From Eledone cirrhosa (taxonomy: Eukaryota), in contig OZ024743.1 in NCBI GenBank assembly GCA_964016885.1, positions 368,218,001 to 368,282,000 on the forward strand: 64,000 nt of DNA, written 5' to 3'. Below are positions 6,270-52,890 of the stretch, in pieces; position 1 is the stretch's first letter, and every line of letters begins with the position of its first letter. The notes beneath the pieces are model-generated. The model searched no databases, was not told the DNA's origin, and saw nothing but the letters and a program-made list of their open reading frames with translations. The translations under genes were made by a program, and so were the position numbers.

Positions 6270-8962
6270 ATGACCATGCTGTAAAATGGAGGGGTAGAGA
6301 GGGCCCTGGAGTCTAGTGAGACATCCTCTCTAGTGCTGGTGGCACAAATAAAAGCACCCAGTCCATGCTGTAAAGTGGCGCTGGTGTTAGGAAGGGCATC
6401 CAACCAGTGTATCAATGCCAAAATGTTTATCAGCACAGCAACAAATCGATAGGAACAACAACAAAATATGAAGACGTCGCCTCTGAGTTGCAACACTTAA
6501 TGTTGGCACTCTCAGAGGTAGATCTGCTGAAATAGCGGAGATGCTGGAGAGAAGGCATGTGGATGTGTGCTGCGTGCAAGAGGTGAGATGGAGAGGTGCC
6601 TCTGCGAGACTAGTCGCAGGCAAACATCTTAGCTATAAGCTTTTCTGGGTAGGTAAGGATGATGGGTTAGGGGGTGTAGGCATTTTCCTGGCTGAGAGAT
6701 GGATCAATAAGACAACCGAGGTAGTTTGAGTTAGTAATCGAATAATTAAGCTTAGATTAGTTGTAGGCAGGAGACTACTGACAATCATCTCTGCCTATGC
6801 TCCCCAAGCAGGCCTAGGCAAAGATGAGAAAGACTGCTTTTACGAGCAACTATTACAAACAACTGCAATGACAGAGGACGAAACATCATTATGCTAGCAG
6901 GGGACGTCAATGGTCATGTTGGACAGCTCCAGGATGGTTACACTGGGGTACATGGTGGGCACGGTTACGGCTCAAGAAATGAAGTAGTGAGACTTCTTGA
7001 ATTTTGTGATGCAAGTACACTGAGTATTTGCAACACAAACTTCCAGAAACCTGCCAACCACCTAATAACATACAAATCTGGCGAGCACATAAGCCAGATT
7101 TACTTCTTACTAGTTAGGCAGCGGGACAGGCAGATAGTGTCTAATACCAAGGCATACCCTGGGGAAGAATGTACCCCACAGGATAGGTTAGTCGTTAGTG
7201 ATATCTCAGTAAGCAAGGGATGGAATGAGACATACAGGAAGGTGTGGAGAAGAAAGGTCTGGAAGCTAAAAGACCTTTCACTAAAATACAAATTTAGGAA
7301 AGCTCTTCAAGATGTGTATGACGAAAAAGATGATGATTTAGAGACGTATGACATAGATAATAACTGGAATTTCTTACGTGTCAACTTACTGCAGGCTACT
7401 GATGAAACTTGTGGCTGGAGCAAAGCTCCAACCAGACAGAGAGTGACCTGGTGGTGGAACAGCACAGTAGATAAGGCCATTAGAGACAAAAGACTAGCAT
7501 GGAAGGCTTTGAAAAAGGGTGGGAGTAGGGAAGAATATACAGCCGCTAAGAGAGAAGCTAGACATCAGGTGTACTTAGCACGCAGGGAGGCTGAGAGTGG
7601 GAGGTTTGCCAATGTTCTGCAACGGGAAGATCAGAGGCGTGCAGTGTTCCACATTGCAAGGCAGTGTGTCAATGCAAATCAGGATGTTGTTGGAGATAAA
7701 TGTGTCCAGGATGATGCCGGTGTACTTAGTGTCACGAATGATCAGAAAAAGGAGGCCTGTAAATGTCATTATGAGAGACTGATGAATGTGGAGAACGAAT
7801 GGGAGAGAGAAAAATTACCCTCAGTAGATCCAACAGAGGGACCAGCTATTGAGTTTGATGAATATAGGGTCCAAGAGGCGATTAAGGAAATGAAAAATGG
7901 TAAGGCTGCTGGACCTCGGGAATAGTTGCTGAGATGCTGAAGGCATCAGGGGACGTAGCACTAAACTGGTTGCACGCATCATCAATCAGGCTATATATGG
8001 TGGTGTCATACCCAAAGACTGGTGCAGCAGTATTCTCATAAATTTCTACAAATGTAAAGGGGATGCTCTGGAGAGGAGAAATTATAGGAGTATAAAACTG
8101 ATGGATCAGGTTATGAAAGTGGCAGAAAGTATATTAGCACAACTAATTAGAAAAAGGGTCAAACTAGATGAGATGCAGTTTGGTTTTGTGTCTGGGAAGA
8201 GTACAACAGATGCCCTCTTCTTGGTGAGACAATTGCAAGAGAGGTTCTTAGAGAAAAATAAGCCACTATACTTAACCTTTGTTGACCTAGAGAAGGCCTT
8301 TGATAGGGTACCCCGATCTGTCATCTGGTGATCCCTAAGGAAACTAGGTGTTGAGGAATGGCTTGTGAGGACAGTGCAAACTTTGTACAGAGGTACTGTC
8401 AGTAAAGTCAGGGTAGGAATGGAGTTTAGTGAGGAATTCCAGATACAAGTAGGAGTACATCAAGGTTCGGTCCTCAGCCATCTCTTCTTCATTATAGTCC
8501 TCCAAGCCATAACAGAGGAGTTTAAGACTGGCTGTCCATGGGAACTTCTCTATGCTGACGATCTGGTTCCTATAGCAGAATCAGTAGAGGAGCTAGAGAA
8601 TAAATTTTGGCTATGGAAACAGCAGTTGAAAGCAAGAGGACTGAGAGTGAAACTAGCTAAGACAAAAGTGTTGATAAGTAGAAAAGAGGACAAAACTCTG
8701 ATTCCGTCAGGGAAATGGCCATGTTCGATATGCAGAAAAGGAACTGGCATAAATTCTATAAAATGCACACAATGCAGATCCTCGGTACACAAGAGATGTA
8801 GCGGGATAGCAGGCAAACTAACAGGTAGGGAGAAATACGTATGCAGTAGATGTACAGGGAAATTAGACAGAAGTCGCATTGATAGACACATTTTTCAAAT
8901 GCAAGCGGGTGCTATAGAAGTGGTGGATAGCCTCCGGTACCTAGGAGATCAGATTAGCATGG
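6270..8962 (+). mobile_element. RTE-clade LINE, family C, degraded, with probable 5' UTR; 3' end missing
   Basis: APE motifs (TLNVG, DVCCVQEVRW, GDVNGHVG), RT (QFGF, YADD) and Cys/His finger; several stops and frameshifts; ATG at 6468 preceded by the pseudoknot/GGAAGGGCATCC module. Confidence 0.9.
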
Positions 8963-9693: not shown

Positions 9694-12349
9694 TGCTCTA
9701 ACAGACGACAAGGACTTCCTAATCATTGCAGGAGATTTTAACGGACACGTAGGTAAACACTGCGACGGCTTCAATAGAGTACATGGAGGCCATGGAGTTG
9801 GCACAAGGAATGAGGAAGGATTCAGACTTCTAGAATTCTGCGACGCCAATGACATGTCGATATGTAACACAAACTTTAAAAAACCCGACAACCACCTGAT
9901 CACCTATAGATCAGGGGAGCACTCTAGTCAGTTAGATTTTATCCTCATCAGAGGACGTGACAGATGGACGGTCGTAAACACAAAAGCCTTCCCTAGTGAG
10001 GAATGTACATCCCAACATAGCTTAGTTGTCAGCGACCTCACGGTCAGAACTAGACGAGCCCTGAAACAGAGGCCAACCTGGAGAAGAAAGATCTGGAAGC
10101 TGAAAGTCCCCTCAACCAGTAACGGATTTAAAGATATTTTACTCAACGCCTACGACAGTAAAGAAGAACAGATAGAGACATTTAACGTAGAAGAGAACTG
10201 GGAGTTCCTAAAAAATAACTTACTAGAGGCGACGGATGAGGTTTGTGGCTGGAGTAAGACCTCAAGCAGGAGGAGAGTGACTTGGTGGTGGAACAATAAG
10301 GTAGATGAAGCAGTCAAGGCCAAGAGACAGGCATGGAAAGAATGGAAGAACGGGGGGAGCAGGGTACATTACATAGAGACCAAGAGGGAAGCTAGGCGAC
10401 AAGTATACTTAGCTAGGAGGGAAGCAGAGGATAGAAAATTCAAGCATGTTTTACAACGTGAGGACCAGAAACAGGAGGTATTCAAGATTGCGAGGCAGTG
10501 TGTCAGAGATAGTTGTGATGTCATTGGAGAGAAGTGTATCCGGAATGATAAAGGTGAGCTTGCCCTCACAAGTGCTGAGAAGAAAGATGCATGGAAGAGT
10601 CATTATGATAGATTACTAAATGAGGAGAATGCATGGGAAGAAGAGACCCTACCCCACGTAGACCCTATAGAGGGACCAGCAGTACAAGTCAGCGGCAGCG
10701 TAGTAAGTAAGGCAATCAGAGATATGAAGATAGGGAAGGCAACCGGTCCATCGGGTATAGCTGCCGAGATGCTGAAGGCATCTGGGTCTGTAGGTCACAC
10801 TATAACCACACGTATCGTTAACCAGGTAATACTAGAGGGGGCCATACCAAAAGATTGGTGCAGTAGCATCATTGTCAACTGCTACAAAGGTAAAGGCGAT
10901 GCACTAGATAGAGGAAACTATAGAGGTATAAAGTTGATGGACCAGGTCATGAAAGTAACAGAAAGAGTTATAGCACAGCTGATTAGGGACCGGGTGAATA
11001 TAGACGAGATGCAATTTGGGTTTGTTCCAGGGAAAGGCACCACTGATGCGCTCTTCCTTGTGAGGCAATTACAGGAAAAGTACCTAGCTAAAAGTAAGCC
11101 ACTCTACTTGGCATTTGTCGACCTTGAGAAAGCCTTTGACAGAGTTCCACGTGCAGTAATCTGGTGGGCTCTTAGAAAACTAGGAGTAGATGAATGGCTT
11201 GTGAAAGCGGTACAAGCCATGTATAGGGGAGCAGTCAGCAAAGTTAGGATTGGCAATGAGTATAGCGAGGAATTTAGCGTACAGGTTGGGGTCCACCAGG
11301 GCTCTGTTCTTAGCCCTCTCCTGTTCATCATAGTCCTGCAGGCAATAACGGAGGAGTTTAAGACCGGATGCCCATGGGAACTCCTGTATGCTGATGACCT
11401 CGCACTCATAGCTGAATCTATGGTAGAACTAGAGAATAAATTCCAAACCTGGAAGCAGGGACTAGAGAGAAAGGGCCTCAAAGTCAACATGACAAAGACT
11501 AAGGTCCTTATAAGTAGACGAGAAAACAGAACCCAGATCCCCTCAGGGAAATGGCCTTGCTCAGTATGTAGGAAAGGTGTAGGTAGGAACTCCATTCTTT
11601 GCCCCAAATGCAAACAATGGGTACACAAGAGATGTAGCGGGATCTCAGGAAGCTTAATTAAGAATGTAGGATTCACATGCAGCAGCTGTGCTGAAACAGC
11701 AAGCAAACAGCCACAGGAAACAAGTACCACCAATCTCTGGGAGGGCCCTGTAGAAACAGTAGACAGCTTCTGCTACCTAGGTGACCGAATTAGCAACGGA
11801 GGTGGGTGCTCAGAAAGTACAATAACTAGGGTAAGAACGGGATGGAAGAAGTTTAGGGAACTACTACCACTGCTAGCTGCAAAAGGCTTCTCCCTCAGAA
11901 TGAAAGGCAGACTGTATGATGCGTGTATCCGAACAGCGATGTTGCATGGTAGTGAGACCTGGGCGCTGAAGGTGGAAGACTTACGTAGATTAGAGAGAAA
12001 CGAAGCCTGCATGCTCCGATGGATGTGTAACAGTAATATACGTGAACGACAAAGCATAAATGAATTGAGAGAGAGACTGAGCATAAGAGGAATCAAATGC
12101 TGCGTGCAGGAGAGGCGGTTACGCTGGTATGGACATGTGATGCGTATGAAGGATGACAGCTGCATAAAAAGGTGCAGAGCACTAGAAGTTGATGGAAACC
12201 GCGGAGTGGGGAGACCCAAGATGACTTGGGATGAGGTGATAAAAGCCGACCTTACCCAACTACACCTCTCAAAGTCAATGACACACGACCGTGACTTCTG
12301 GCGTCACGCAGTAATACAGGGTACCCGACCTCCCATGGGTACATGCTGA
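9694..12349 (+). CDS. Truncated APE endonuclease + RT + PHD-like finger; open frame
   Basis: ORF 9614..12349; the first ~27 aa come from flanking DNA; GDFNGHVG, QFGF, YADD, CSVC..CPKC..HKRC..CSSC. Confidence 0.85.
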
Positions 12350-12646
12350 AGCATATAAACAATATGCCCCCCCTCCCCCACCGCAAGGTGGTCGTGGAGG
12401 TGCCACGGCAAAAAAGCACCCAGCCCACACTGTAAAGTGGACGTGTAGGCGCCACGAAAAAGCACCCAGCACTCACTGTAAATGAGGTTGGTGTTAGGAA
12501 GGGCATCCAGCTGTAGAAATCAAGCCAGATCAGTTCCTGTATGAGCAAGGCATGGTCAGCCGACCAGACACTGCCCACAACAGGACAACCCGTCTAACCC
12601 ATGCTAGCGTGGAAGAACGGACGTAAAACGGTGATGATGATGATGA
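9694..12646 (+). mobile_element. RTE-clade LINE, family A, 5'-truncated young copy
   Basis: Nearly identical to 26993-29940 (-); begins abruptly after (TA)n; 3' UTR module and (GAT)n tail. Confidence 0.95.
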
Positions 12647-13704: not shown

Positions 13705-15558
13705 ATCACAGAAAGAGTCATAGCACAGTTGATTAGGGACTGGGTAAAACTAGATGAGATGCAATTTGGGTTTGTGCGAGGAAAAGGCACCACTGATGCT
13801 CTCTTTCTTGTGAGGCAGTTACAGGAAAAGTACCCAGCTAAAAGTATGCCGCTCTACCTGGCATTTATCGATCTGGAAAAAGCCTTCAACAGAGTGTCCC
13901 ATGCTATAATCTGGTGAGCTCTTAGAAAACTAGGAGTAGATGAATGGCTAGTGAAAGCTGTACAAGCGATGTATAGGGGAGCAGTCAGCAAAGTTAAGGT
14001 TAATAATGACTATAGCAAGGAATTTTGCATACAGGTCGGTGCCCACCAGGGCTCTGTTCTTAGCCCTCTTCTGTTTATTATAGTTTGCAGTCTATAACAG
14101 AGGAGTTTAAGACCGGATGCCTGTATGCAGTTGATCTTACACTTATAGCTGAATCTATGGGGGTACTAAAGAAGAAATTCCAAACATGGAAGCGGGGACT
14201 AGAAAGAAAGGGCCTCAAAGTGAACCTGACAAACACTAAGGTCCTAGTAAGTAGACGAGAAAACGGAACCCAGATCCCCTCAGGGAAATGGCCTTGCTCA
14301 GTATGTAGGAAAAGTGTAGATAGAAATTCCATCCTCTACCCCAAATGCAAACAATGGGTACACAAGAGATGTAGTGGGATCTCAGGAAGCTTAGCTAAGA
14401 ATGCAGGCTTTACATGTAGCAGCTAGGCTGGGACAGTAAGCAGCAAACGGCCACAGGAAACAAGCACCACCGAACTGTGGGAGGGCTCTGTAGAAACACT
14501 AGACAACTTTTGCTATCTAGGTGACCGAATTAGAAGCAGAGGTGTGGGTGTTCTGAAAATACAGTAACCAGGGTGAGAACGGGACGGAAGAAGTTCAGGG
14601 AGCTACTGCCACTGCTAGCTCCAAAAGGTTTTTCCCTCAAGATGAAAGGCAGACTGTATGAAGCATGCACAGTAGTGAGACTTGGACGCTATGTGCAGAC
14701 GACTTATGTAGATTGGAAAGAAATGAAGCTTGAATGGTCTGATTGATGTGTAATAGTAATATTCGTGAAGGGCAAAGCTGCAAAAGGTTTTTTCCTCAAA
14801 ATGAAAGGCAGACTGTATGATGCGTGCATACAAATAGCAATATTACATGGTAGAGAGACCTGGGCGCTGTCTGTAGAAGACTTGCGTAGATTAGAAAGAA
14901 ATGAAGCTTGCATGCTCCGATGGATGTGTAATAATAATATATGCGAACGGCAAAGCATAGACGAATTGAGAGAGAGACTGAGCATAAGAGGAATCAAATG
15001 TTGTGTGCAGGAGAGGAGGTTGTGTTGGTATGGACATGTGATGCGTTTGAAGGATGACAGCTGCATAAAAAGGTGCAGAGCACTAGAAGTCGATGGAAGC
15101 CCCAGAGTGGGGAGACCTAAGAATACCTGGGATGAGGCGATAAAAGCCGACCTTAACCAATTGTACTTCTCAAAGGCGATGATACATGACCGTGACCTCT
15201 GGAGTCGCGCAGTAATACAGAACCCCCCCCCCCCCCCACGGGTACAAGCCGAAGCTGAAGCATATATACAATACGCCCCCACACCCTCCCACTGCAAAGT
15301 CGTCGTGGAGGTGCCACGGCAAAAAAGCACCCAGCCCACACTGTAAAGTAGACAGGTAGACGCCACGGAAAAAAGCACCCAGCACGCATTGTAAATGAGG
15401 TTGGTGTTAGGAAGGGCATCCAGCTGTAGAAATCAAGCCAGAATCAGTTCCTGTATGAGCAAGACAGTCACCCGACCAGGCACTGCCCACAGCAGGACAA
15501 CCCATTTAACCCATGCTAGCATGGAGGAAAGGATGTAAAACTGTGATGATGATGATGA
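13705..15558 (+). mobile_element. RTE family A-like, older degraded 5'-truncated copy with internal duplication
   Basis: RT fragments; about 14610-14765 repeated in diverged form at about 14775-14940; 3' UTR module and (GAT)n tail. Confidence 0.9.
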
Positions 15559-15697
15559 TATATGTGTATGTATATATGTGTATATATATGTGTTTATATA
15601 TATATGTGTATATATATATATATATGTATATATATATTTATATATATGTGTATATGTATATATGTGTGTGTGTGTATATGTGTGTGTATATATGTGT

Positions 15698-15967
15698 GTC
15701 ATCATCATCACCGTTTTACGTCCGTTCTTCCACGCTAGCATGGGTTAGACGGGTTGTCCTGTTGTGGGCAGTGTCTGGTCGGCTGACCATGCCTTGCTCA
15801 TACAGGAACTGATCTGGCTTGATTTCTACAGCTGGATGCCCTTCCTAACACCAACCTCATTTACAGTGAGTGCTGGGTGCTTTTTCGTGGCGCCTACACG
15901 TCCACTTTACAGTGTGGGCTGGGTGCTTTTTTGCCGTGGCACCTCCACGACCACCTTGCGGTGGTCG
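15698..15967 (-). mobile_element. RTE family A, 3' UTR-only insertion
   Basis: Essentially identical to 26993-27256; tail-to-tail with the 13705-15558 copy. Confidence 0.9.
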
Positions 15968-16157
15968 TGGTGTGTATATATATATATGTATATATATGCA
16001 TATATATATATATGTATATATATGTGTATATGTATATATATGTGTATATTATATGTGTATATATATATATGTGTATATATATATGTGTATATATATATAT
16101 ATATGTGTATATATATATATGTGTATATATATATATGTGTATATATATATATATGTG

Positions 16158-23850: not shown

Positions 23851-24648
23851 ATCATCATCATCATCATCGTTTAACGTCCGTGTTCCATGCTTGCATGGGT
23901 TTGGACGGGGGTTTTCCCACTTGAGGCAAGAGTGATTGTCTTGCTCGCATAGGACTGTCTGGCGGGTTTTCTACAGTTGGATGCCCTTCCTAACACCAAC
24001 CACATTTACAGTGTAGGACTGGGAGGTTTTTACCGTGTTGCCTACACGGCCACATTACAGCGTGGACTGTCTGGCGGGTTTTCTACAGCTGGATGCCCTT
24101 CCTAACACCAACCACATTTACAGTGTGGGACTGGGAGGTTTTTACCGTGTTGCCTACACGGCCACATTACAGCGTGGACTGTCTGGCGGGTTTTCTACAG
24201 CTGGATGCCCTTCCTAACACCAACCACATTTACAGCGTGGGACTGGGAGGTTTTTACCGTGTTGCCTACACGGCCACATTACAGCGTGGACTGTGTGTTT
24301 TTTGTCGTGACCCCTACACAATCTCATTTGTTTCGGCCTGGATGTTGTGGCACCAACATAATTTTACATTGAAAGGGGCGGTGTGGATGGGGTCGGGGTG
24401 GTGAGACGGGGGTGTATTTTATTAGAGATGCCTACTGACTGTAGTAGGTTTTACTTTGTATTTAGGTAAGGCGGGTCTTCTCTATTACTGAGTACCGCCA
24501 AAGGTCTCGGTCCAGTGACATTGTCTTGGAGAGGTGTAAGTGTGTGAGGTCGGAATTTATCAGCTCGTCCCAGGTTTTTCTGGGTCTGCCTACACCGTGG
24601 CTACCATCTATCTTTATTGCCCTGCACTTTGTTATACAGCTGTCATCT
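23851..24648 (-). mobile_element. RTE family B 3' fragment with a triplicated 112-bp 3' UTR unit
   Basis: Units start at 23952, 24064 and 24176; ORF-end homology at about 24470-24648; (GAT)n tail. Confidence 0.9.
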
Positions 24649-24728: not shown

Positions 24729-24772
<44 letters not shown>

Positions 24773-24775
<3 letters not shown>

Positions 24776-26943
24776 CATCATCATCATCATCATCATTTTA
24801 CGTCCGCTTTTCCCTGCTTGCAAGGGTGGGACGGGTCTTATTCAGCACAGCATCTCTCCACTCGTCACGGTCCCTCGTCATTTCCACCGTGAGCTTCAAT
24901 GATCTGAGGTCTGTTCTCACCACCTCCGCCCATGTTTTTCGTGGTCTACCTCTACCACATCTTCCTTCAACTGGCAATTCCTGGCACTTCTTCACCCATC
25001 GGTCATCCTCCATGCGCATCACATGTCCATACCACCTCAGTCTCCTCTCCCGTACACTACATTCTATCCCTCTCAAACACAGTTTCTCTCTCAACACATT
25101 TATGCTGGGTCGTTCACGCACATTTACACTGCACATCCAACGGAGCATGCTTGCCTCATTTCTCTCCAGCCGTCGCATATCCTCTGCAGTTGCTGCCCAT
25201 GTCTCACTACCATGCAGCATCGCGCTCCTCACACAGGCATCATGCAACCGGCCTTTCGCATGCAGGGAGAAACGCTTCTTCGTCAACAGAGGAAGCAGCT
25301 CCCTAAACTTCTTCCAACCCGTCCTTATTCTAGATACTATGGCCTCTGAACACCCTCCTCCCATGCTAATCTGATCTCCTAGTTACCGGAAGCTATCTAA
25401 CACTTCTATAGCGCCCTCTTGTATTTGAAAAATGTGTCTATCAATGCGACTTCTACTGTCTAATTTCCCTGTACATCTACTGCATACATATTTCTCCCTA
25501 CCTGTTAGTTTGCCTGCTATACCGCTACATCTCTTGTGTACCGAGGATCTGCATTGTGTGCATTTTATAGAATTTATGCCAGTTCCTTTTCTGCATATCG
25601 AACATGGCCATTTCCCTGACGGAATCAGGGTTTTGTCCTCTTTTCTACTCATCAACACTTTTGTCTTAGCTAGATTCACTCTCAGTCCTCTTGCTTCCAA
25701 CTGCTGTTTTCATAGCCAGAATTTATTCTCTAGCTCCTCTACTGATTCTGCTATAAGAACCAGATCGTCAGCATAGAGAAGTTCCCATGGACAGCCAGTC
25801 TTAAACTCCTCTGTTATGGCTTGGAGGACTATAATGAACAAGAGCGGGCTGATGTACTCCTACTTGTATCTGGAATTCCTCACTAAACTCCATTCCTACC
25901 CTGACTTTACTGAGAGTACCCCTGTACAAAGTTTGCACTGTCCTCACAAGCCATTCCTCAACACCTAGCTTCCTTAGGGACCACCAGATGACAGATCGGG
26001 GTACCCTATCAAAGGCCTTCTCTAGGTCAACAAAGGCTAAGTATAGTGGCTTATTTTTCTCTAAGAACCTCTCTTGCAATTGTCTCACCAAGAAGAGGGC
26101 ATCTGTTGTACTCTTCCCAGGCACAAAACCAAACTGCATCTCATCTAGTTTGACCCTTTCTCTAATTAGTTGTGCTAAAATCCTTTCTGCCACTTTCATA
26201 ACCTGATCTATCAGTTTTATACCCCTATAATTGCTCCTCTCCAAAGCATCCCCTTTACCTTTGTAGCAATTTATGAGAATACTGCTGCACCAGTCTTTGG
26301 GTATGACACCACCATATATAGCCTGATTGATGATGCGTGCAACCAGTTTAGTGCTACGTCCCCCGATGCCTTCAGCATCTCAGCAACTATTCCCGATGGT
26401 CCGGCAGCCTTACCATTTTTCATTTCCCTAATCGCCTCTTGGACCCTATATTCATCAATCTCAATAGCTGGTCCCTCTGTCGGATCCACCAAGAGTCATT
26501 TTTCTCTCTCCCATTCGTTCTCCACATTCATCAGTCTCTCATAATGACATTTCCAGGCCTCCTTTTTCTGATCATTCGTGACACTAAGTACACCGGCATC
26601 ACCCCGGACACATTTATCTCCAACAACATCCTGATTTGCATTGACACACTGCCTTGCAATGTGGAACACCGCCCGCCTCTGATCTTCCCGTCGCAGAACA
26701 TTGGCAAACCTCCTACTCTCTGCCTCCCTGCGTGCTAAGTACACCTGATGTCTAGCTTCTCTCTTAGTGGCTGTATATTCTTCCCTACTCCCACCCTTTT
26801 TCCAAGCCTTCCATGCTAGTCTTTTGTCTCTAATAGCCTTATCTACTGTGCTGTTCCACCACCAGGTCACCCTCTGTCTGGTTGGAGCTTTGCTCCAGCC
26901 ACAGGTTTCATCAGTAGCCTGCAGCAAGTTGTCGCGTAAGAAA
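24773..26943 (-). mobile_element. RTE family C, 5'-truncated and frameshifted
   Basis: Highly similar to 7370-8960; ORF ends LNKTRPTLASREKRT* immediately before the (ATG)n tail, with no long 3' UTR. Confidence 0.92.
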
Positions 26944-26992: not shown

Positions 26993-29900
26993 ATCATCAT
27001 CATCACCGTTTTACGTCCGTTCTTCCACGCTAGCATGGGTTAGACGGGTTGTCCTGTTGTGGGCAGTGTCTGGTCGGCTGACCATGCCTTGCTCATACAG
27101 GAACTGATCTGGCTTGATTTCTACAGCTGGATGCCCTTCCTAACACCAACCTCATTTACAGTGAGTGCTGGGTGCTTTTTCGTGGCGCCTACACGTCCAC
27201 TTTACAGTGTGGGCTGGGTGCTTTTTGCCGTGGCACCTCCACGACCACCTTGCGGTGGGGGGGGGGGCATATTGTTTATATGCTTCAGCATGTACCCATG
27301 GGAGGTCGGGTACCCTGTATTACTGCGTGACGCCAGAAGTCACGGTCGTGTGTCATTGACTTTGAGAGGTGTAGTTGGGTAAGGTCAGCTTTTATCACCT
27401 CATCCCAAGTCATCTTGGGTCTCCCCACTCCGCGGTTTCCATCAACTTCTAGTGCTCTGCACCTTTTTATGCAGCTGTCATCCTTCATACGCATCACATG
27501 TCCATACCAGCGTAACCGCCTCTCCTGCACACAGCATTTGAATCCTCTTATGCTCAGTCTCTCTCTCAATTCCTTTATGCTTTGTCGTTCACGTATATTA
27601 CTGTTACACATCCATCGGAGCATGCAGGCTTCGTTTCTCTCTAATCTATGTAAGTCTTCCACCTTCAGCGCCCAGGTCTCACTACCATGCAACATCGCTG
27701 TTCGGATACACGCATCATACAGTCTGCCTTTCATTCTGAGGGAGAAGCCTTTTGCAGCTAGCAGTGGTAGTAGTTCCCTAAACTTCTTCCATCCCGTTCT
27801 TACCCTAGTTATTGTACTTTCTGAGCACCCACCTCCGTTGCTAATTCGGTCACCTAGGTAGCAGAAGCTGTCTACTGTTTCTACAGGGCCCTCCCAGAGA
27901 TTGGTGGTACTTGTTTCCTGTGGCTGTTTGCTTGCTGTTTCAGCACAGCTGCTGCATGTGAATCCTACATTCTTAATTAAGCTTCCTGAGATCCCGCTAC
28001 ATCTCTTGTGTACCCATTGTTTGCATTTGGGGCAGAGAATGGAGTTCCTACCTACACCTTTCCTACATACTGAGCAAGGCCATTTCCCTGAGGGGATCTG
28101 GGTTCTGTTTTCTCGTCTACTTATAAGGACCTTAGTCTTTGTCATGTTGACTTTGAGGCCCTTTCTCTCTAGTCCCTGCTTCCAGGTTTGGAATTTATTC
28201 TCTAGTTCTACCATAGATTCAGCTATGAGTGCGAGGTCATCAGCATACAGGAGTTCCCATGGGCATCCGGTCTTAAACTCCTCCGTTATTGCCTGCAGGA
28301 CTATGATGAACAGGAGAGGGCTAAGAACAGAGCCCTGGTGGACCCCAACCTGTACGCTAAATTCCTCGCTATACTCATTGCCAATCCTAACTTTGCTGAC
28401 TGCTCCCCTATACATGGCTTGTACCGCTTTCACAAGCCATTCATCTACTCCTAGTTTTCTAAGAGCCCACCAGATTACTGCACGTGGAACTCTGTCAAAG
28501 GCTTTCTCAAGGTCGACAAATGCCAAGTAGAGTGGCTTACTTTTAGCTAGGTACTTTTCCTGTAATTGCCTCACAAGGAAGAGGGCATCAGTGGTGCCTT
28601 TCCCTGGTACAAACCCAAATTGCATCTCGTCTATATTCACCCGGTCCCTAATCAGCTGTGCTATAACTCTTTCTGTTACTTTCATGACCTGGTCCATCAA
28701 CTTTATACCTCTATAGTTTCCTCTATCTAGTGCATCGCCTTTACCTTTGTAGCAGTTGACAATGATGCTACTGCACCAATCTTTTGGTATGGCCCCCTCT
28801 AGTATTACCTGGTTAACGATACGTGTGGTTATAGTGTGACCTACAGACCCAGATGCCTTCAGCATCTCGGCAGCTATACCCGATGGACCGGTTGCCTTCC
28901 CTATCTTCATATCTCTGATTGCCTTACTTACTACGCTGCCGCTGACTTGTACTGCTGGTCCCTCTATAGGGTCTACGTGGGGTAGGGTCTCTTCTTCCCA
29001 TGCATTCTCCTCATTTAGTAATCTATCATAATGACTCTTCCATGCATCTTTCTTCTCAGCACTTGTGAGGGCAAGCTCACCTTTATCATTCCGGATACAC
29101 TTCTCTCCAATGACATCACAACTATCTCTGACACACTGCCTCGCAATCTTGAATACCTCCTGTTTCTGGTCCTCACGTTGTAAAACATGCTTGAATTTTC
29201 TATCCTCTGCTTCCCTCCTAGCTAAGTATACTTGTCGCCTAGCTTCCCTCTTGGTCTCTATGTAATGTACCCTGCTCCCCCCGTTCTTCCATTCTTTCCA
29301 TGCCTGTCTCTTGGCCTTGACTGCTTCATCTACCTTATTGTTCCACCACCAAGTCACTCTCCTCCTGCTTGAGGTCTTACTCCAGCCACAAACCTCATCC
29401 GTCGCCTCTAGTAAGTTATTTTTTAGGAACTCCCAGTTCTCTTCTACGTTAAATGTCTCTATCTGTTCTTCTTTACTGTCGTAGGCGTTGAGTAAAATAT
29501 CTTTAAATCTGTTACTGGTTGAGGGGACTTTCAGCTTCCAGATCTTTCTTCTCCAGGTTGGCCTCTGTTTCAGGGCTCGTCTAGTTCTGACCGTGAGGTC
29601 GCTGACAACTAAGCTATGTTGGGATGTACATTCCTCACTAGGGAAGGCTTTTGTGTTTACGACCGTCCATCTGTCACGTCCTCTGATGAGGATAAAATCT
29701 AACTGACTAGAGTGCTCCCCTGATCTATAGGTGATCAGGTGGTTGTCGGGTTTTTTAAAGTTTGTGTTACATATCGACATGTCATTGGCGTCGCAGAATT
29801 CTAGAAGTCTGAATCCTTCCTCATTCCTTGTGCCAACTCCATGGCCTCCATGTACTCTATTGAAGCCGTCGCAGTGTTTACCTACGTGTCCGTTAAAATC

Positions 29901-30528
29901 TCCTGCAATGATTAGGAAGTCCTTGTTGTCTGTTAGAGCAGTAGTGTGTATTAGGGACTCGTAAAACCTATCCTTAAGTTCGTCTGGCAGCCCCGATTGG
30001 GGTGCGTAAGCTGATATTATTGTGGTAATTGTCTTATTCAGGACTAGTCTGAGTTTAATGATTCTTGCATTTACCCTGTACACTGAGATTACTTTATCTA
30101 CCCACTTGTCAGCTAGTAGTATACCTACACCACCCATCCCATCGTCATTTCCCACCCAGAAAAATTTGTAGCACTGGCTTTTTCCTACAAGGACTCTAGC
30201 AGACCCTCCTCTCCATCTAGTCTCTTGCACACAGCATACATCAACTTCCTTTCGCTCTAGCATTTCTACGATTTCTCCTGCTCTTCCTTTCATTGAGCCT
30301 ACATTGATGGTACCAACTCGGAGTTTTGGGCATTTGTCGACACTCGTAGGGGAGGGTCTCTGGGTTGACGCTTCACGTGGGTGCTTGGTAGCTCGCAGAT
30401 TCATATTTCATCTATTGATTCAGAGTTGCTCGTGTATTCCCAGCTCATCCATCCATAACGGTGGGAAAATTGAGGGCTAGAAGAACAGTGGTGGTGGGGT
30501 AATGGCAGGGTGTGTTGGGATGCGCCAT
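26993..30528 (-). mobile_element. RTE family A with complete ORF; candidate retrotransposition-competent copy
   Basis: About 120-nt leader, single 1039-aa ORF, 3' UTR module and (GAT)n tail; TA/TG tracts on both sides. Confidence 0.95.
27285..30404 (-). CDS. LINE polyprotein: APE endonuclease, RT and PHD-like Cys4-His-Cys3 finger
   Basis: VGTINVG, DVCCVQETRW, SAYAPQ, GDFNGHVG, SQHSLV; RT QFGF, DLEKAFD, GVHQGSVLSPLLF, YADD, FCYLG; no stops. Confidence 0.95.
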   Translation of the reverse strand: MNLRATKHPREASTQRPSPTSVDKCPKLRVGTINVGSMKGRAGEIVEMLERKEVDVCCVQETRWRGGSARVLVGKSQCYKFFWVGNDDGMGGVGILLADKWVDKVISVYRVNARIIKLRLVLNKTITTIISAYAPQSGLPDELKDRFYESLIHTTALTDNKDFLIIAGDFNGHVGKHCDGFNRVHGGHGVGTRNEEGFRLLEFCDANDMSICNTNFKKPDNHLITYRSGEHSSQLDFILIRGRDRWTVVNTKAFPSEECTSQHSLVVSDLTVRTRRALKQRPTWRRKIWKLKVPSTSNRFKDILLNAYDSKEEQIETFNVEENWEFLKNNLLEATDEVCGWSKTSSRRRVTWWWNNKVDEAVKAKRQAWKEWKNGGSRVHYIETKREARRQVYLARREAEDRKFKHVLQREDQKQEVFKIARQCVRDSCDVIGEKCIRNDKGELALTSAEKKDAWKSHYDRLLNEENAWEEETLPHVDPIEGPAVQVSGSVVSKAIRDMKIGKATGPSGIAAEMLKASGSVGHTITTRIVNQVILEGAIPKDWCSSIIVNCYKGKGDALDRGNYRGIKLMDQVMKVTERVIAQLIRDRVNIDEMQFGFVPGKGTTDALFLVRQLQEKYLAKSKPLYLAFVDLEKAFDRVPRAVIWWALRKLGVDEWLVKAVQAMYRGAVSKVRIGNEYSEEFSVQVGVHQGSVLSPLLFIIVLQAITEEFKTGCPWELLYADDLALIAESMVELENKFQTWKQGLERKGLKVNMTKTKVLISRRENRTQIPSGKWPCSVCRKGVGRNSILCPKCKQWVHKRCSGISGSLIKNVGFTCSSCAETASKQPQETSTTNLWEGPVETVDSFCYLGDRISNGGGCSESTITRVRTGWKKFRELLPLLAAKGFSLRMKGRLYDACIRTAMLHGSETWALKVEDLHRLERNEACMLRWMCNSNIRERQSIKELRERLSIRGFKCCVQERRLRWYGHVMRMKDDSCIKRCRALEVDGNRGVGRPKMTWDEVIKADLTQLHLSKSMTHDRDFWRHAVIQGTRPPMGTC

Positions 30529-30582
30529 GTGTATATATATATAAAGAGTTTTGTAGCTTGCTCATAAATATATATATTTATC

Positions 30583-31503: not shown

Positions 31504-31860
31504 AAGAAAAAGAGATGAAATCGAAAATGCAACTGGAGTCTTATTTTTTTTTTAAATATATATATTTATTTGGTTCCTTTACCAGTTTCGCAGTTCTTCT
31601 GCTTTTCAAAAGGTGAGTTGAGATAGAGGGTCTGTGGTTTTTCTCACAGATGTGAGAAAAACCACAGACCCTCCATCTCAACTCACCTTTTGAAAAGCAG
31701 AAGAACTGCGAAACTGGTAAAGGAACCAAATAAATATATATATTTAAAAAAAAAATAAGACTCCAGTTGCATTTTCGATTTCATCTCTTTTTCTTTATAC
31801 TTTCACTCGTGTAGGACACCTCTGTTATTTTTCATTTTGTAAAAAAAACCTCACTTTCTA
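31500..31860. mobile_element. Fold-back element with inverted hammerhead pair H2
   Basis: Arms of about 149 bp (31500-31648 / 31651-31798) with a 2-nt spacer and (TA)n flanks; second copy reversed at 59786-60111. Confidence 0.85.
31686..31723 (+). ncRNA. Minimal hammerhead H2 with U3-A8 core variant (antisense copy at 31576-31613)
   Basis: CCUU-UUGAAAA-GCAG aagaa CUGC-GAAA-CUGG-UA/AAGG. Confidence 0.7.
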
Positions 31861-37140: not shown

Positions 37141-39683
37141 CCCTTTAGTGTTCAAACCGCCAGAAAGCACCCAAAATTATTTCCCCTTCATTTGTTCAAA
37201 CCGCCCGAAAGTGCCCGAAAACACCTACACTAAAATATCGTTCTAAAAATAAACAAACCATCATCAAAATCTTGTCAATTCGAGACTACTGCGAGATTAG
37301 GCCTTTACCGTGAAAACTAACACTTAATATAGTGAAACAAGTTGAAGCAACACGTGTTTTTTTAACTTTGAAAGTGCAACAAATTTTTTTTGTATCAACA
37401 TGGCTTCTGAAAGTAGCGATACCGACTTTGAAGGTTTTACACAAGACGACATTCAGAATGAACAAAAAACAAAAGATAATATTAGTGATATATCATCAAA
37501 TGAATCTGATGTTTATATTTCTGAAATTTCGTCCGACGAAGATTGTTATTTTGAAAGTGAAAGCGAAGCAGATCTCCAGGGCGCCATTGAAGATATTTCA
37601 GCAACATGGTCGAAAAATACCACACCAATACATGCTCCCGATTTTGTTGAAAATACTGGTCCACAGCATATATTACCTCCCGATGCTAAAGCACTGGATT
37701 ATTTGTTTTTGTTTTTGCCACAAACTTTCTTTGAAGTTGTGGCAAAAGAGACGAATCGATATGCCCAACAGCAGATTTCATATCGAAGAAAACCCGATCA
37801 GTTATGGCGACCGACAGATGCTGCGGAGTTGCATGCATTTTTTACCATAAACATTGTTTGGTATAAAACAATTTCCAAGACTGTGGAATGGAATTACTGG
37901 AGCACTGATATAAGGTTTAGCGACCCTTATATATCGAGTATTATGCCAAAAACAAGGTATTTGTAATTAAACCAGTATTTGCATCTGGTTGATACTTCAA
38001 ATGCCCCTGGTAGAAATGATTTCAATTATGACCCTCTGTATAAAGTTCGACCAGTAATTAAAATGCTCTCGGAAAAATTTAAAACAGTGTATATACCTGG
38101 GAAAAATCTTAGTTTTGATGAAGCTATGATTGGGTATAAGGGTAGGATTCATTTTAGACAATACATGCGAGCTAAACTCACTAAATGGGGCATCAAGGTG
38201 TGGGAACTCTGTGAATCGGACACAGGCTACTGTGTAAACTTTGATGTTTACACAGGAAAGAAACAACGGAGAGAGAAAATATGTTGTGTGGTCTCTGACT
38301 GAACCCTTTCACTCTCAACATAAACACATATATTTTGATCGTTTTTTTTTTTCAGTGCGTCTAGCAGAGGATCTTGCCCTCATAAATACGTACACCTGCA
38401 GTACAATAATGGGGAATCGCAAAAAATAATGAAAATCACAAAATTTAAAAAGAGAGGGGACATTCTCCAATTGCAAAAGGGAACTTGTTAGCCACATTGT
38501 ATAAAGACAAGCGGCAAATTTTGTTCCTATCATCTAACCAAGAACCAGTAGTTGGGGCTGAAGGTAAACCTTTAGTCAACCTCTCCTATAATAAATATCC
38601 GACCAATATTACGCGTATTACCCAGTTGGACGCCCTGGAAAGAAATGGTGGAGATATATCTTGTGGTTTTTAGTGAATTTGACCATTGAGAATTCTTTTA
38701 TTGTATTCACTAAAAGCCACAAGAATCCGCCACCACCAAAGGACTACTGTCACATGAAATTTTGTGTAGACGTTGCCTCTCAGCTACGTGGAGGATATTC
38801 TTCTCGTAAACACAAAGCTGGGAGAAAGTCGAAATTATCTGAGGTAAACACGGAAAATATTGATTTTCACAAAGTGGAGAAAATTAATGGGAGGAAGGTT
38901 TGCCGAATGTGCTCTTTGCAAAAGAGAAAAAACTGTTAAAGGTTATGCAATTCAAACCACGTTTATGTGTTCTTTTTGCAAAGTGCCATTATGTAAAGGC
39001 TGTTTTGGTCAATATCATGATAGAAATATTGTCTGACAATATAGAAAAAAATATTTAAAAAATATATTGGAACACATTAGATACAAAAACACCTGCATTC
39101 ACCTGTGTCACACCTGCATCACACCTGTTAAAGAACTTATATATTGGGAACATTCTGTTATATAAATCTACTCAGTACATTGTGTAAGAGTATATTGCCA
39201 ATATTATTTTGACTGGTGAAAGAGTTTTATACATTTTTTCAATGAAAATATTTGCATGAAATGTAGAGACAGACTAAAACCGTGTACTGATTATACCTGC
39301 ATTTTAAATTAATTCACCTGTTCGGAAATGTGCTAAGATTGTTGGAAGTCAACATCTAGGTCATTGTTGGATATTCTTTGTAACAAATCTAGCAGGTAAG
39401 TCAGATAAAGTTTTAATTTTTGTGTTTATCCATAAAGTCATTACTTTTACACCTGTTAATTAATTGCACCTGCCCATCAAATTTAAAAAGAAAAAATCGG
39501 TAAAAATATACAATTGTATATTATTGATAGTTTAACATCTACTGACAACATTTCAAGTCTGCACATAGAAAATTAAGAAAATTACAAACAAATGAAATTG
39601 ATAACCCTCTTGAGTATGATTAACTCAAAATAAATGCGAACAAATAAGCATGACATTTGAAAATTAATGCGAATGCTAAAGGG
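37141..39683 (+). mobile_element. piggyBac transposon, full-length and defective
   Basis: TTAA at 37137-37140 and 39684-39687; TIRs CCCTTTAGTGTTC and GAATGCTAAAGGG. Confidence 0.92.
37400..39036 (+). pseudogene. piggyBac (PGBD4-like) transposase with stops and frameshifts
   Basis: Acidic N-terminus, ETNRYA, LSFDEAMI, KWGIKVW, IYFDRFF; third catalytic Asp region appears deleted; C-terminal Cys-rich CRMC..CSFCKVPLC..CF..YH. Confidence 0.88.
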
Positions 39684-43208: not shown

Positions 43209-43486
43209 GATGTGTTGTGTCCTTGAGCAAGACACTTTATTTCACATTGCTCCAGTTTACTCAGCTGTAGAAATGAGATGATAGGGACTGGGGTCCCTGT
43301 CATTCCACTGCAAAGTGGTCGTTGAGGTGCCACGGCAAAAAAGCACCCAGCACTCACTGTAAATGAGGTTGGCGTTAGGAAGGGCATCCAGCTGTAGAAA
43401 TCGAGCGTGAATCAGTTCCCGTCCCACCCTTGCAAGCAGGGAAAAGCGGACGTAAAATGAAATGATGATGATGATGATGATGATGA
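43209..43486 (+). mobile_element. 5'-truncated SINE: Meta/V-like central domain + RTE pseudoknot module + RTE family C tail
   Basis: GTGTCCTTGAGCAAGACACTT; body matches the family A 3' UTR; tail CCCGTCCCACCCTTGCAAGCAGGGAAAAGCGGACGTAAAATGA matches the family C end. Confidence 0.8.
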
Positions 43487-43495
43487 TACAGATCA

Positions 43496-43825: not shown

Positions 43826-44016
43826 GAGCCAGTTGAAGGAAGACGTGGTAGAGGTAGACCACAAAAAACATGGGCGGAGGTGGTGAGAACAGACCTCAGA
43901 TCATTGAAGCTCACGGTGGAGATGACGAAGGACCGTGACGAGTGGAGAGATGCTGTGCTGAATAAGACCCGTCCCACCCTTGCAAGCAGGGAAAAGCAGA
44001 CGTAAGATGATGATGA
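43826..44016 (+). mobile_element. RTE family C short 3' fragment
   Basis: PVEGRRGRGRPQKTW..KTRPTLASREK plus (GAT)n tail, inside (TA)n. Confidence 0.9.
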
Positions 44017-44048
44017 TATATATATATATATAATTGTATATATATATA

Positions 44049-45190: not shown

Positions 45191-46775
45191 ATAAATTAAT
45201 AAAAACAATGAATAAAAACAAAGAAACAGTTCCTTATATTAAAAAATTCATCATTTTACGATCGTTTCTAGGATATATATGTGTGTGTTGGTATGTATAT
45301 CATATAGATCTATGTAAAGGTTTACAAACTATCAGAGGGAATATACATACCTACACATATATATGCTGTCTTCAGAAATAAATCTGAAGACAGCATATAT
45401 ATGTGTAGGTATGTATATTCCCTGATAGTTTGTCAAACTTTTACATAGATCTATCATCATCATCATCATCGTTTAACGTCCATATTCCACGCTCGCATGG
45501 GTTTGGACGGGAGTTTTCCCACTTGAGGCAAGAGTGGTTCTCATGCTCGCATAGGACTGTCTGGCGGGTTTTCTACGGCTGGATGCCCTTACTAACACCA
45601 ACTACATTTACAGTGTGGAACTGGGAGGTTTTTACTGTGTTACCTACACGGCCACATTACAGCGTGGACTGTGCGTTTTTTTGTCGTGATACCTACATGA
45701 CCTCGTTTGTTTCGGGCTGGATGTTGTGGTACCAACATAACTTTACATTGAAAGGGGTGGTGTGTATGGGGTGGGGGTAGTGGGACGGGGGTGTATTTTG
45801 TTAGAGGCGCCTACTGACTGTAGTAGGTTTCACTTTGCACTTAGGTAAGGCGGGTCTTCTCTATTACTATGTAGCGCCAAAGATCTCGGTCCAGTGACAT
45901 TGTCTTGGAGAGGTGTGTGAGGTCGGAATTTATCAAGTCGTCCCAGGTTTTTCTGGGTCTGCCTACTCCGTGGCTACCGTCTATTTTTATTGCCCTGCAC
46001 TTTTTTCTACAGCTGTCGTCTTTCATGCGCATCACGTGACCATACCAACGTAGTCTTCTCTCGAGTAAACATCTGATCCCTCTTATTTCTAATTTCTACC
46101 TTAGTTTGTTTATGCTTTGCCGTTCATGTATATTACTATTACACATCCAGCGGAGCATGTAAGCTTCGTTCCTCTCCAGTCTGCGTATATCCTCTGCACA
46201 CAATGCCCAGGTCTCACTGCCATGTAACATTGTGTTCGTATGCAGGCATCATACAGCCTGCCTTTCACTTTTAGAGAGAACCCTTTAGCGGCCAATAGTG
46301 GTATAAGCTCTCTGAACTTTTTCCATCCCGTTCTGACTTTAGCTACTGTACTTTCAGAGCACCCTCCCCCACTGCTGATTTTGTCACCCAGGTAACGGAA
46401 GCTGTCCACTATTTCTATAGAACCATCTGTGCAATGGAATGAGTTAGTATTCTGTGGGCACTTACTGCTACTTATTGCACCAGAGCACCGGCCACATATA
46501 AAATCTATATTCTTAGTTAGCTATAAAATCTATATTCTTAGTTAGTATGATATACATACCAACACACACATATATATCCTAGAAACAATCGTAAAATGAT
46601 GAATTTTTTAATATAAGGAACTGTTTCTTTGTTTTTATTAATTTATCTTGACTCTGTTTTCCTGTGTTTTTATCGAAAACATTTTGAATACATCTTCTCT
46701 TTTCATAATATTTGGATTACATTGAGTACTTCATACGGATTGGATACTACTGTATATTTTGATAGATTTATCTAC
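45191..46775. mobile_element. Fold-back element H5 interrupted by an RTE insertion
   Basis: Palindrome centred near 45379; the right arm breaks at GATCTA (about 45452) and resumes TATGATATAC at about 46546; minus-strand hammerhead at 45251-45381. Confidence 0.85.
45453..46545 (-). mobile_element. RTE family B 5'-truncated copy nested in H5
   Basis: (GAT)n tail, 3' UTR and ORF C-terminus; ~24-bp tandem duplication at the 5' junction. Confidence 0.9.
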
Positions 46776-51151: not shown

Positions 51152-51825
51152 CAGTCTTAGCCATGTTAATTTTAAGGCCTTTTGATTCTAGGCCGTGCTT
51201 CCATGTTTGGAATTTCTTCTCTAGCTCGGCCATTGATTCAGCTATGAGCGTTAGGTCATCTGCGTATAGGAGTTCCCATGGGCAGCCGGTCTTGAACTCC
51301 TCTGTTATAGCCTGAAGAGCAATAATGAATAGTAGGGGGCTAAGAACAGAGCCCTGATGGACACCAACTTTTACGCTAAACTCTTCACTATATTCGTTGT
51401 TAATTCTAACCTTGCTCACTGTTATGTTGGTGCCACAAAATCCAGGCCGAAACAAATGAGATCGTGTAGGTGTCACGACAAAAAAACACACAGTCCACGC
51501 TGTAATGTGACCGTGTAGGCAACACGGTAAAAACGTCCCAGTCCCACACTGTAAATGTGGTTGGTGTTAGGAAGGGCATCCAGCTGTAGAAAACCTGCCA
51601 GACAGTCCACGCTGTAATGTGGCCGTATAGGCAACACGGTAAAAACCTCCCAGCCCCACACTGTAAATGTGGTTGGTGTTAGGAAGGGCATCCAACTGTA
51701 GAAAACCCGCCAGACAGTCCTATGCGAGCAAGACAACCACTCTTGCCTCAAGTGGGAAAACTCCCGTCCAAACCCATGCAAGCATGGAACACGGACGTTA
51801 AACGATGATGATGATGATGATGATA
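51152..51825. mobile_element. RTE family B insertion with 5' inversion and deletion
   Basis: 51152-51423 RT fragment (-) fused at GTT to the 3' UTR and tail 51421-51825 (+), which has a duplicated 112-bp unit. Confidence 0.8.
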
Positions 51826-52017: not shown

Positions 52018-52890
52018 GAGTCAGAACTGGTTGGAAAAAGTTCAGAGAGCTTATACCACTATTAGCTGCTAAAGGGTTCTCCCTAAAAATGAAAGGCAGG
52101 TTGTACGATGCCTGCATACGAACAGCAATGTTGCATGGTAGTGAGACCTGGGCATTGTGTGCAGAGGATATACGCAGACTAGAGAGGAACGAAGCTTGCA
52201 TGCTCCGCTGGATGTGTAACAGTAATATACGTGAACGGCAAAGCATAAACGAACTAAGGAAAAAATTAGAGATAAGAGGGATCAGATGTTGTTTACTCGA
52301 GAGAAGGCTGCGTTGGTATGGACACGTGATGCGCATGAAAGTCGATAGCTGTATTACAAAGTGCAGGGCAATAAAGATAGACGGTAGCCACGGAATAGGC
52401 AGACCTAGAAAAACATGGGATGAGCTGATAAACTCCGACCTCACACACTTACACCTCTCCAAGACAATGTCACTGGACCGTGACCTTTGGCGGTACTCAG
52501 TAACAGAGAAGACCCGCCTTGCCAGTAGGCATCTCTAACAAACTACACCCCGTCCCGCCACCACCCCCACCCCATCCACACCACCCCGTTCTATGTAAAG
52601 TTATGTTGGTGCCGCGCCATCCAGGCCGAAACAAATGAGATCGTGTAGGTGTCACGACAAAAAAACACACAGTCCACGCTGTAATGTGGCCGTGTAGGCA
52701 ACACGGTAAAAACCTCCCAGACCCACACTGTAAATGTGGTTGGTGTTAGGAAGGGCATCCAACTGTAGAAAACCTGCCAGACAGTCCTATGCGAGCAAGA
52801 CAATCACTCTTGCCTCAAGTGGGACTACCCCCGTCCAAACCCATGCAAGCGTGGAACACGGACGTTAAACGTTGATGATGATGATGATGA

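What the first reader, a model, noticed from the sequence alone, without database searches (positions are those of the whole stretch)
12393..12519. Covarying tandem-pseudoknot plus hairpin RNA module in RTE UTRs
Seen: in family A, CGUGG-AGGUG-CCACG-GCAAAAAA-GCACC has a loop GGUG able to pair with CACC after an A-tract. It is followed by CAG-C-CCAC-A-CUG-UAAA-GUGG, a second H-type knot. The unit occurs twice and ends in a GUUGGUGUU-AGGAAG-GGCAUCCAGC hairpin. Family B has UCGUG/CACGA with GUGU/ACAC, and CCGUG/CACGG with AGG/CCU (52641-52770). The copy at 6333 has GUGC/GCAC. Both helices therefore covary. Inference: a compact structured element for RT recognition, translation control or nuclease resistance, loosely analogous to viral UTR pseudoknot stalks. 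I do not recognise it as a named family.
Basis: partly seen in the sequence, partly recalled or inferred. Interest (0 to 1): 0.72.

Follow-up and report, generated by a model that had tools for sequence, protein, structure and literature searches.

The report
Pseudoknot cassette relocated in RTE retrotransposons
A strongly conserved RNA segment, predicted to fold into small knots and a hairpin, sits at the front of many animal jumping genes but at the back of two families here, where it likely serves as a movable handle for the element's own copying enzyme.

Summary
The module is real. It lies after the stop codon of two RTE LINE families (A, B), before the ORF of a third (C), and inside a CORE-SINE. 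A and B match at only 37% of four-fold sites, yet the units match at about 82% and the hairpin at 33 of 34 bases.

The end hairpin is a known sequence: the RTE 5'-UTR piece of bipartite SINEs (hagfish RTE-2/RTE-4).

The second knot is the better supported one. Both its helices change compensatorily in distant RTE 5' UTRs, and the same pattern appears in the 3' half of the SINE CORE domain. The first knot is intact only in unit 1: it has a mismatch in A unit 2, is cut to 3 bp in B unit 2, and its loop helix rests on one double change. A rival nested fold that removes the hairpin is predicted.

A and B keep a decayed tail at the ORF end, so a 5'-UTR-plus-tail cassette was probably appended. The likely function is a position-independent RNA site for the RTE protein; nothing was probed experimentally. 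I found no Rfam match and no published structure.

The parts
9694..12349 (+). 5'-truncated family A RTE-type LINE ORF (endonuclease, reverse transcriptase, PHD finger); stop codon at 12347-12349
   Evidence: 99.6% identical to the copy at 26993-29940
12323..12346 (+). decayed copy of the RTE 3' tail stem at the ORF end (the position of the live tail in family C)
   Evidence: alignment; read by eye, no significance test
12378..12391 (+). 5-bp hairpin with a GCAA tetraloop, a remnant half unit; its closing pair is C-G here and U-A in other copies
   Evidence: one search shows both changes in about half of the X1 depth
12391..12420 (+). unit 1, knot 1 (predicted H-type): 6-7 bp stem, GGUG(C) loop pairing with (G)CACC behind an A-tract
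   Evidence: distant homologues L040 and L082
12421..12440 (+). unit 1, knot 2 (predicted): CAG/CUG crossed with CCAC/GUGG, loop 3 UAAA
12441..12466 (+). unit 2, knot 1, degenerate: 4-bp stem, loop helix interrupted by C-A at 12450
   Evidence: one search shows T at 12450 in about 19% of the X1 depth
12467..12486 (+). unit 2, knot 2 (predicted): CAG/CUG crossed with CUCA/UGAG
   Evidence: (U-A in A against A-U in B)
12487..12519 (+). end hairpin with an AGGAAG loop and a purine-rich 3' flank; the widespread RTE 5'-UTR/SINE piece
12588..12645 (+). live RTE 3' tail and (GAT)n repeat, the shared 3' end of all A and B copies
6333..6404 (+). single unit plus hairpin in the 5' UTR of a decayed family C RTE, about 75 nt before endonuclease-coding sequence
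   Evidence: family C 3' ends at 24766-24836 and 43967-44032 have no module
52639..52772 (+). family B module (two units plus hairpin, with a degenerate third unit upstream) in the 3' UTR; six further B copies in the window
43215..43490 (+). 5'-truncated CORE-SINE: CORE domain with its own knot-2-like motif (about 43253-43278), a collapsed family A unit plus hairpin, and a family C tail
15687..15964 (-). short family A copy made only of module and tail, starting at the GCAA hairpin with a short fold-back extension

Best explanation
The module is a conserved RNA segment of RTE retrotransposons, predicted to fold into small H-type pseudoknots followed by a hairpin, that likely binds the element's own endonuclease/reverse-transcriptase protein wherever it lies and was likely moved from the 5' UTR to the 3' UTR in the ancestor of families A and B. 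Shown: its sequence, its three settings (5' UTR, 3' UTR, SINE body), its conservation and the compensatory changes. Inferred: read-through into, or template switch onto, an internally deleted RTE copy added a '5'-UTR piece plus tail' cassette behind the old tail, which then decayed; the unit duplicated before A and B split; a CORE-SINE later took a collapsed unit from the A lineage. Inferred mechanism: the hairpin is the minimal protein contact, since many SINEs keep it alone. The knots sequester GCACC and CAG so that the hairpin can form instead of the rival long stem, and they present it to the protein together with the 3' tail during particle assembly or second-strand steps.
For: Conservation: four-fold sites 102 of 276 (37%) between A and B against unit 1 40 of 49, unit 2 39 of 47 aligned, hairpin 33 of 34. 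[quoted passage not shown] Knot 2: found directly before the hairpin in 6 of 136 distinct loci (5 of 63 clusters; cluster representatives 4 against a shuffle mean of 0.37, reached by 0 of 100 shuffles), including both loci with a verified downstream RTE ORF. Stem 1 reads CAG/CUG, AGG/CUU (L053), GGU/GCC (L124) and CCGG/CCGG (RTE-2_EBu, read by eye), and stem 2 changes too. Knot 1: 2 of 136 loci against a shuffle mean of 0.22; a sequence-only profile ranks those two first and third in 255 kb, at weak E-values of 1.8 and 7.8. Old tail remnant. Precedent: R2 protein binds a 5' pseudoknot (PMC6765202 passage); RTE-mobilised SINEs keep both a 5' and a 3' piece (PMC5786205, parts 1-4 of 5).
Against: No binding, probing or retrotransposition data. 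Most hairpin-bearing loci lack either knot (130 of 136 lack knot 2, 134 of 136 lack knot 1). One of the six knot-2 hits (L139) is probably a chance bacterial match, and two (both L025) are one family. The patterns were designed after seeing the data. The rival nested fold wins in pseudoknot-free prediction, and rough knot energies fall on either side of the nested alternatives depending on a recalled penalty. Hairpin flanks show little covariation. A crude test found an RTE-like tail in only 16 of 144 hairpin loci, so the partner may be a host factor. The far 5' UTR of family A was not seen: the longest copy is truncated at about 30527, so loss of the module from the 5' end is shown only near the ORF start. 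The A-B similarity could partly reflect exchange of 3' ends.
Confidence: 0.45

Rival explanations
1. The knots block 5'-to-3' exonucleases. In a 5' UTR they would protect uncapped RNA; in the A/B 3' UTR they would leave a stable 250-nt fragment of module plus tail, a ready-made SINE-like template.
For: Compact stacked knots with A-rich loops. A sibling knot occupies the first 33 nt of hagfish RTE-4_EBu. Of 12 module-bearing LINE copies in the window, 2 begin at the module (15964, 30581) and a third has its inversion junction there (51421). An R2 double pseudoknot gives cap-like protection (PMC13708176 passage).
Against: Short 3' fragments are the usual product of LINE truncation, and 12 copies are too few to test an excess. 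No Rfam family matched the module. SINEs keep the hairpin behind a tRNA head, where no such protection is needed.
Confidence: 0.2
2. Only simple hairpins form, or the module switches between a knotted state and a long nested stem; the conserved CAG, CUGUAA and GCACC are single-stranded protein sites.
For: MFE folds; knot 1 damaged in unit 2 of both families; CUGUA recurs after the hairpin, outside any knot; CpG decay on both strands can imitate covariation (decayed copy at 30581).
Against: Stem 1 of knot 2 changes on both sides in four separate lineages by non-CpG routes. Requiring both helices gave a clear excess over shuffles, while the hairpin-only pattern did not (11 against a mean of 6.5). 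B unit 2, L040 and L082 cannot form the rival long stem well.
Confidence: 0.15
3. A translation element (IRES-like in the 5' UTR, enhancer-like in the 3' UTR, as in tobamovirus stalks).
For: In C, L053 and L124 it lies within about 170 nt upstream of the coding homology.
Against: The hairpin is kept in untranslated SINEs; AUG codons are present downstream in L053 and L124.
Confidence: 0.1
4. A DNA-level element (internal promoter or factor-binding site); a 3' copy would drive the next element in tandem arrays.
For: Very high primary-sequence conservation of the hairpin core; Kojima 2018 speculates on regulator binding for RTE 5' pieces.
Against: Compensatory changes across crossed helices and repeated G-U pairs on the sense strand; the base opposite the first U of the hairpin is A or G in 108 of 112 loci.
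Confidence: 0.07
5. A self-cleaving ribozyme.
For: Some RTE 5' ends carry HDV-like ribozymes (as cited in PMC5786205).
Against: No Rfam match; the knots are serial, not nested as in HDV-like ribozymes; cleavage between ORF and tail, or behind a SINE head, would separate the parts that are copied together.
Confidence: 0.03

Closest known systems
RTE 5'-UTR piece of bipartite non-autonomous RTEs and RTE-mobilised SINEs (PMC5786205, parts 1-4 of 5 and supplement part 2; PMC7245038, passages and supplement passages)
   Same: [quoted passage not shown]
   Different: Here the cassette is appended to autonomous LINEs behind their own ORF. The text I read assigns no structure or tested function to the piece. 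The 'conserved domain' of Kojima 2018 Fig. 2 appears to be another sequence (0 hits for the hairpin core in its supplement).
CORE domain of CORE-SINEs, 3' half (MIR1_AMi, MAR1, WALLSI4 in the PMC5786205 supplement; BivaCORE-SINE2 in the PMC4824008 supplement)
   Same: Read by eye: CAG, a short loop, a 4-6 bp strand, CUG, an A-rich loop and the complementary strand, with that helix differing between families; WALLSI4 has UAG/CUA in the aligned columns. The window's own CORE-SINE shows it too.
   Different: The module lacks the CORE 5' half. The motif is only about 22 nt, so common descent versus convergence is not settled. MIR_Xt does not fit the pattern.
R2 5' RNA pseudoknot and HDV-like ribozyme (PMC6765202 and PMC13708176, passages)
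   Same: A pseudoknotted UTR element of a non-LTR retrotransposon, bound by the element's protein and protective against exonuclease.
   Different: A different clade and topology; no sign of catalysis; works here from a 3' position if it works at all.
Tobamovirus upstream pseudoknot domain and viral exoribonuclease-resistant RNAs (recalled, no call)
   Same: Serial small H-type knots in a 3' UTR.
   Different: No Rfam match; cellular retrotransposon; likely 5'-UTR origin.

Membership tests
RTE-type LINE (host element) | single ORF with AP endonuclease and reverse transcriptase, short 3' tail with a microsatellite | tested here: met
   no tree was built, so the clade label rests on this anatomy and on the UTR match to RTE-2/4_EBu
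Bipartite RTE 5' piece | sequence found in the 5' UTR of autonomous RTEs | tested here: met
   family C, L053, L124; hagfish RTEs
Bipartite RTE 5' piece | joined to an RTE 3' tail without an ORF between | tested here: met
   12487-12645; also L111, L135, L147
Bipartite non-autonomous RTE | the element is non-autonomous | tested here: not met
   A and B carry long open ORFs upstream; met only by the SINE at 43215 and the short copy at 15687
CORE domain | conserved 5' half | tested here: not met
   the CORE-like motif occurs at 43219 but not in the module
CORE domain | 3' half sequence | tested here: inconclusive
   similar pattern by eye; the unit profile did not detect the window's CORE half at E up to 1
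Vhc stem-loop of V-SINEs (PMC4758252, section 11 part 1) | 39-nt Vhc sequence | tested here: not met
   Vhc SINE consensus sequences show a different motif; 0 hits for the hairpin core in 4 supplement files, file 1 not searched
HDV-like ribozyme | match to the family model; nested double pseudoknot with catalytic C | tested here: not met
   no Rfam hit at E up to 1; serial topology by inspection; no dedicated pattern search was run
Pistol ribozyme | match to the family model; a further helix between the A-rich linker and the knot strand (recalled) | tested here: not met
   no Rfam hit; the linker runs straight into the knot strand
Exoribonuclease-resistant RNA | blocks Xrn1 | not testable with these tools
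   needs an assay; no Rfam hit
H-type pseudoknot | significant covariation of both crossing helices in a large alignment | tested here: inconclusive
   knot 2 supported by per-sequence parses and by eye; knot 1 weaker; R-scape was not available

The most novel reading that the evidence does not exclude
RTE UTRs are built from a portable kit of small H-type pseudoknots and purine-loop hairpins, and the enigmatic conserved SINE bodies, the CORE 3' half of MIR and possibly UCON3, are the same pseudoknot borrowed from RTE 5' UTRs. Two autonomous LINE families have moved the kit to their 3' end, so that every truncated copy or decay fragment is a competent SINE-like template.
Probability: 0.25. Interest if true: 0.85.

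Novelty: new variant of a known kind. Interest (0 to 1): 0.6.

Why it matters
The papers I read call the origin or function of conserved SINE bodies unknown, and leave open why RTE-mobilised SINEs keep a 5' piece of their LINE. This gives a testable structure for that piece, natural compensatory variants from distant animals, and a natural relocation experiment in young, near-identical elements. If the CORE 3' half is the same knot, one fold would link the very widespread CORE-SINEs to LINE leaders. RTE UTRs are also being engineered empirically for gene insertion (PMC13708176 passages).

Tried and rejected
No whole genome is held. Rfam at E up to 1: 82 matches, all miRNA models below their gathering scores, none at the module. 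Viral contigs: 0 matches to the hairpin core.

Sequencing runs: no RNA holder was listed. The many coded organisms holding the stretch were not taken as horizontal transfer, because the three non-host runs laid had depths of tens to hundreds against millions in X1. Raw-read run X23 gave 0 reads.

'Octopus' comes from unchecked earlier notes and my recall.

MAFFT could not put knot 2 in register across distant loci, so no column-wise count was made for it. The hairpin core could not be tested for covariation because the search pattern fixed it. Of 144 distinct hairpin hits I marked 11 by eye as probable chance bacterial matches; they were left in all counts. The tail and tRNA-head motif tests are crude and miss cases visible by eye.

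Literature: ten searches, read as listings, showed no paper describing a pseudoknot in RTE UTRs or in the CORE domain. The library lacks most subscription journals; Ruminski 2011 was not held, and the original CORE-SINE and octopus SINE papers were not read. Supplements not seen: file 1 of PMC4758252, file 1 of PMC4824008 and files 5-8 of PMC9115989 (8 files searched, 0 hits); Repbase was not available. I also saw passages of PMC13282606, PMC9115989 and bioRxiv 10.1101/493155 (a DANA clone containing part of the hairpin core).

Full report
Setting. The window is AT-microsatellite-rich animal DNA crowded with LINEs whose single ORF encodes an endonuclease, a reverse transcriptase and a PHD finger. 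Three families are present: A (young; two long copies are 99.6% identical), B (75% protein identity to A) and C (71-75% to A and B over a short RT stretch, lower over the whole ORF). The host is probably an octopus; this rests on unchecked earlier notes and recall, not on a test.

The observation. In family A the order after the stop codon at 12349 is a GCAA hairpin (12378-12391), unit 1 (12391-12440), unit 2 (12441-12486), the end hairpin (12487-12511), a spacer of about 70 nt and the RTE tail with (GAT)n. Rfam has nothing there. The module is under constraint: A and B agree at 102 of 276 four-fold sites but at 40 of 49 bases in unit 1, 39 of 47 aligned in unit 2 and 33 of 34 in the hairpin. 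Exchange of 3' ends between families could inflate this.

How good the knots are inside the window. On ten units, 82.5% of cells pair and the covariation score exceeds all but 3 of 500 shuffles, but only 3 pairs change on both sides (193 of 500 shuffles reach that), and the control ignores relatedness. Stem 1 of knot 1 varies compensatorily (U-G, U-A, C-G at one pair). Its loop helix has one double change, a C-A mismatch in A unit 2 and only a shifted 3-bp form in B unit 2. The second helix of knot 2 covaries (U-A in A against A-U in B unit 2; further variants at 6274 and 36116). CAG/CUG has no double change. Pseudoknot-free folding prefers a long stem between GCACC-CAG and the hairpin's 5' strand in A, C and the SINE. 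Rough knot energies, using two penalty sets recalled from memory, fall on both sides of the nested alternatives. The decayed copy at 30581 shows that CpG loss on both strands can imitate compensation.

Distant relatives. An exact search for the hairpin core gave 123 metagenome loci (about 700 estimated) and 27 loci in genome bins, most apparently animal DNA. Two have an RTE ORF starting just downstream, L053 and L124. A generic two-helix search directly before the hairpin hit 6 of 136 distinct loci, 5 of 63 clusters; cluster representatives gave 4 against a shuffle mean of 0.37, and 0 of 100 shuffles reached 4. Both verified 5' UTRs were among them, with stem 1 changed to AGG/CUU and GGU/GCC. 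One hit is probably chance. The hairpin-only version of the pattern was not clearly enriched. [quoted passage not shown] RTE-4_EBu has no knot directly before the hairpin but starts with a different 4+7 bp knot, whose homologue in L111 has both helices changed. Knot 1 was found in 2 of 136 loci (shuffle mean 0.22; 1 of 60 shuffle sets reached 2); these two resemble each other and are not independent. So knot 2 is well supported, knot 1 moderately, and both are optional companions of a far more widespread hairpin.

Link to the CORE domain. The window's CORE-SINE (43215-43490) has a knot-2-like motif in its CORE 3' half. Published consensus sequences show the same pattern by eye: MIR1_AMi, MAR1 and BivaCORE-SINE2 keep CAG and CUG with a varying second helix, and WALLSI4 has UAG/CUA in the aligned columns. 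MIR_Xt does not fit. The motif is short and the unit profile did not detect the window's CORE half, so homology is a hypothesis.

History (inferred). Family C has one unit plus hairpin before its ORF and a bare tail at the ORF end, like the outside RTEs. A and B have a decayed tail-like stretch at the ORF end, then the module, then a complete tail. The simplest reading is that an internally deleted '5' piece plus tail' copy was appended in their common ancestor. No module lies within about 120 nt before the A ORF or within 770 nt before the longest B copy, but the A copy is truncated and longer 5' ends exist in the host run, so complete loss from the 5' end is not shown. The SINE's unit is the first half of A unit 1 joined to the second half of A unit 2, followed by a family C tail, so it took the module from the A lineage. 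Unit number varies among copies (joints skipping or repeating about 46 nt; 112-nt repeats at 23952 and 51490), so the exact tandem count may be partly neutral.

Mechanism. A sequence kept in 5' UTRs, 3' UTRs and untranslated SINE bodies most likely acts in the RNA during retrotransposition. I put 0.45 on binding by the element's own protein, by analogy with the R2 5' pseudoknot and the bipartite rule for RTE SINEs. An exonuclease block gets 0.2, with a weak hint from 2 of 12 copies starting at the module. Hairpins without knots get 0.15, translation 0.1, a DNA element 0.07 and a ribozyme 0.03. Against the best reading, a crude test found an RTE-like tail in only 16 of 144 hairpin loci, so a host factor is not excluded. 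None of this was tested experimentally.

Verdict. A real, selected module. Its hairpin is a known but structurally undescribed RTE 5' piece; the predicted knots, the 3' position in autonomous LINEs and the resemblance to CORE were not found in ten library searches. New variant of a known kind; interest 0.6.

Noticed in passing
window 15289-15964: A short family A copy lies inverted just downstream of another A copy's 3' end, giving an inverted repeat of about 270 nt (89-97% complementary) that would form long double-stranded RNA.
   Followed up: partly
window 15964-15971 (- strand): The 5' junction of the short copy extends the GCAA hairpin by about 6 bases complementary to the following sequence, as if the cDNA folded back and primed itself.
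   Followed up: partly
window 23952-24294 and 51490-51720: 112-nt tandem repeats (3.1 and 2.1 copies) of knot 2, unit 2 and the hairpin in two B copies.
   Followed up: partly
window 51153-51421: An inverted RT fragment is joined directly to the start of a B module, as in twin-priming inversions.
   Followed up: partly
L053, L111, L135 (upstream of the hairpin); hagfish RTE-4_EBu: A second hairpin with the same GUC/GGC upper stem and a purine-rich six-base loop precedes the end hairpin, suggesting paired protein sites.
   Followed up: no
L006 cluster (17 loci): A SINE-like family has an upstream strand complementary to the hairpin's 5' side, echoing the rival fold seen here; possibly a conserved switch.
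   Followed up: no
PMC7245038 supplement, SINE2-1 and SINE2-10_EBu: The region I take to be the UCON3 body can also be drawn by eye as an H-type knot with an A-rich loop 3 and an inserted hairpin.
   Followed up: no
window 31601-31698, 45341-45418, 53068-53145: Near-perfect inverted repeats that score weakly against miRNA models, below gathering thresholds; probably small DNA-transposon derivatives.
   Followed up: no
window 37346-37966: Transposase fragment matching DDE_Tnp_1_7.
   Followed up: no
L124-L150: Many prokaryote genome bins contain animal SINE or RTE sequence, likely host contamination.
   Followed up: no
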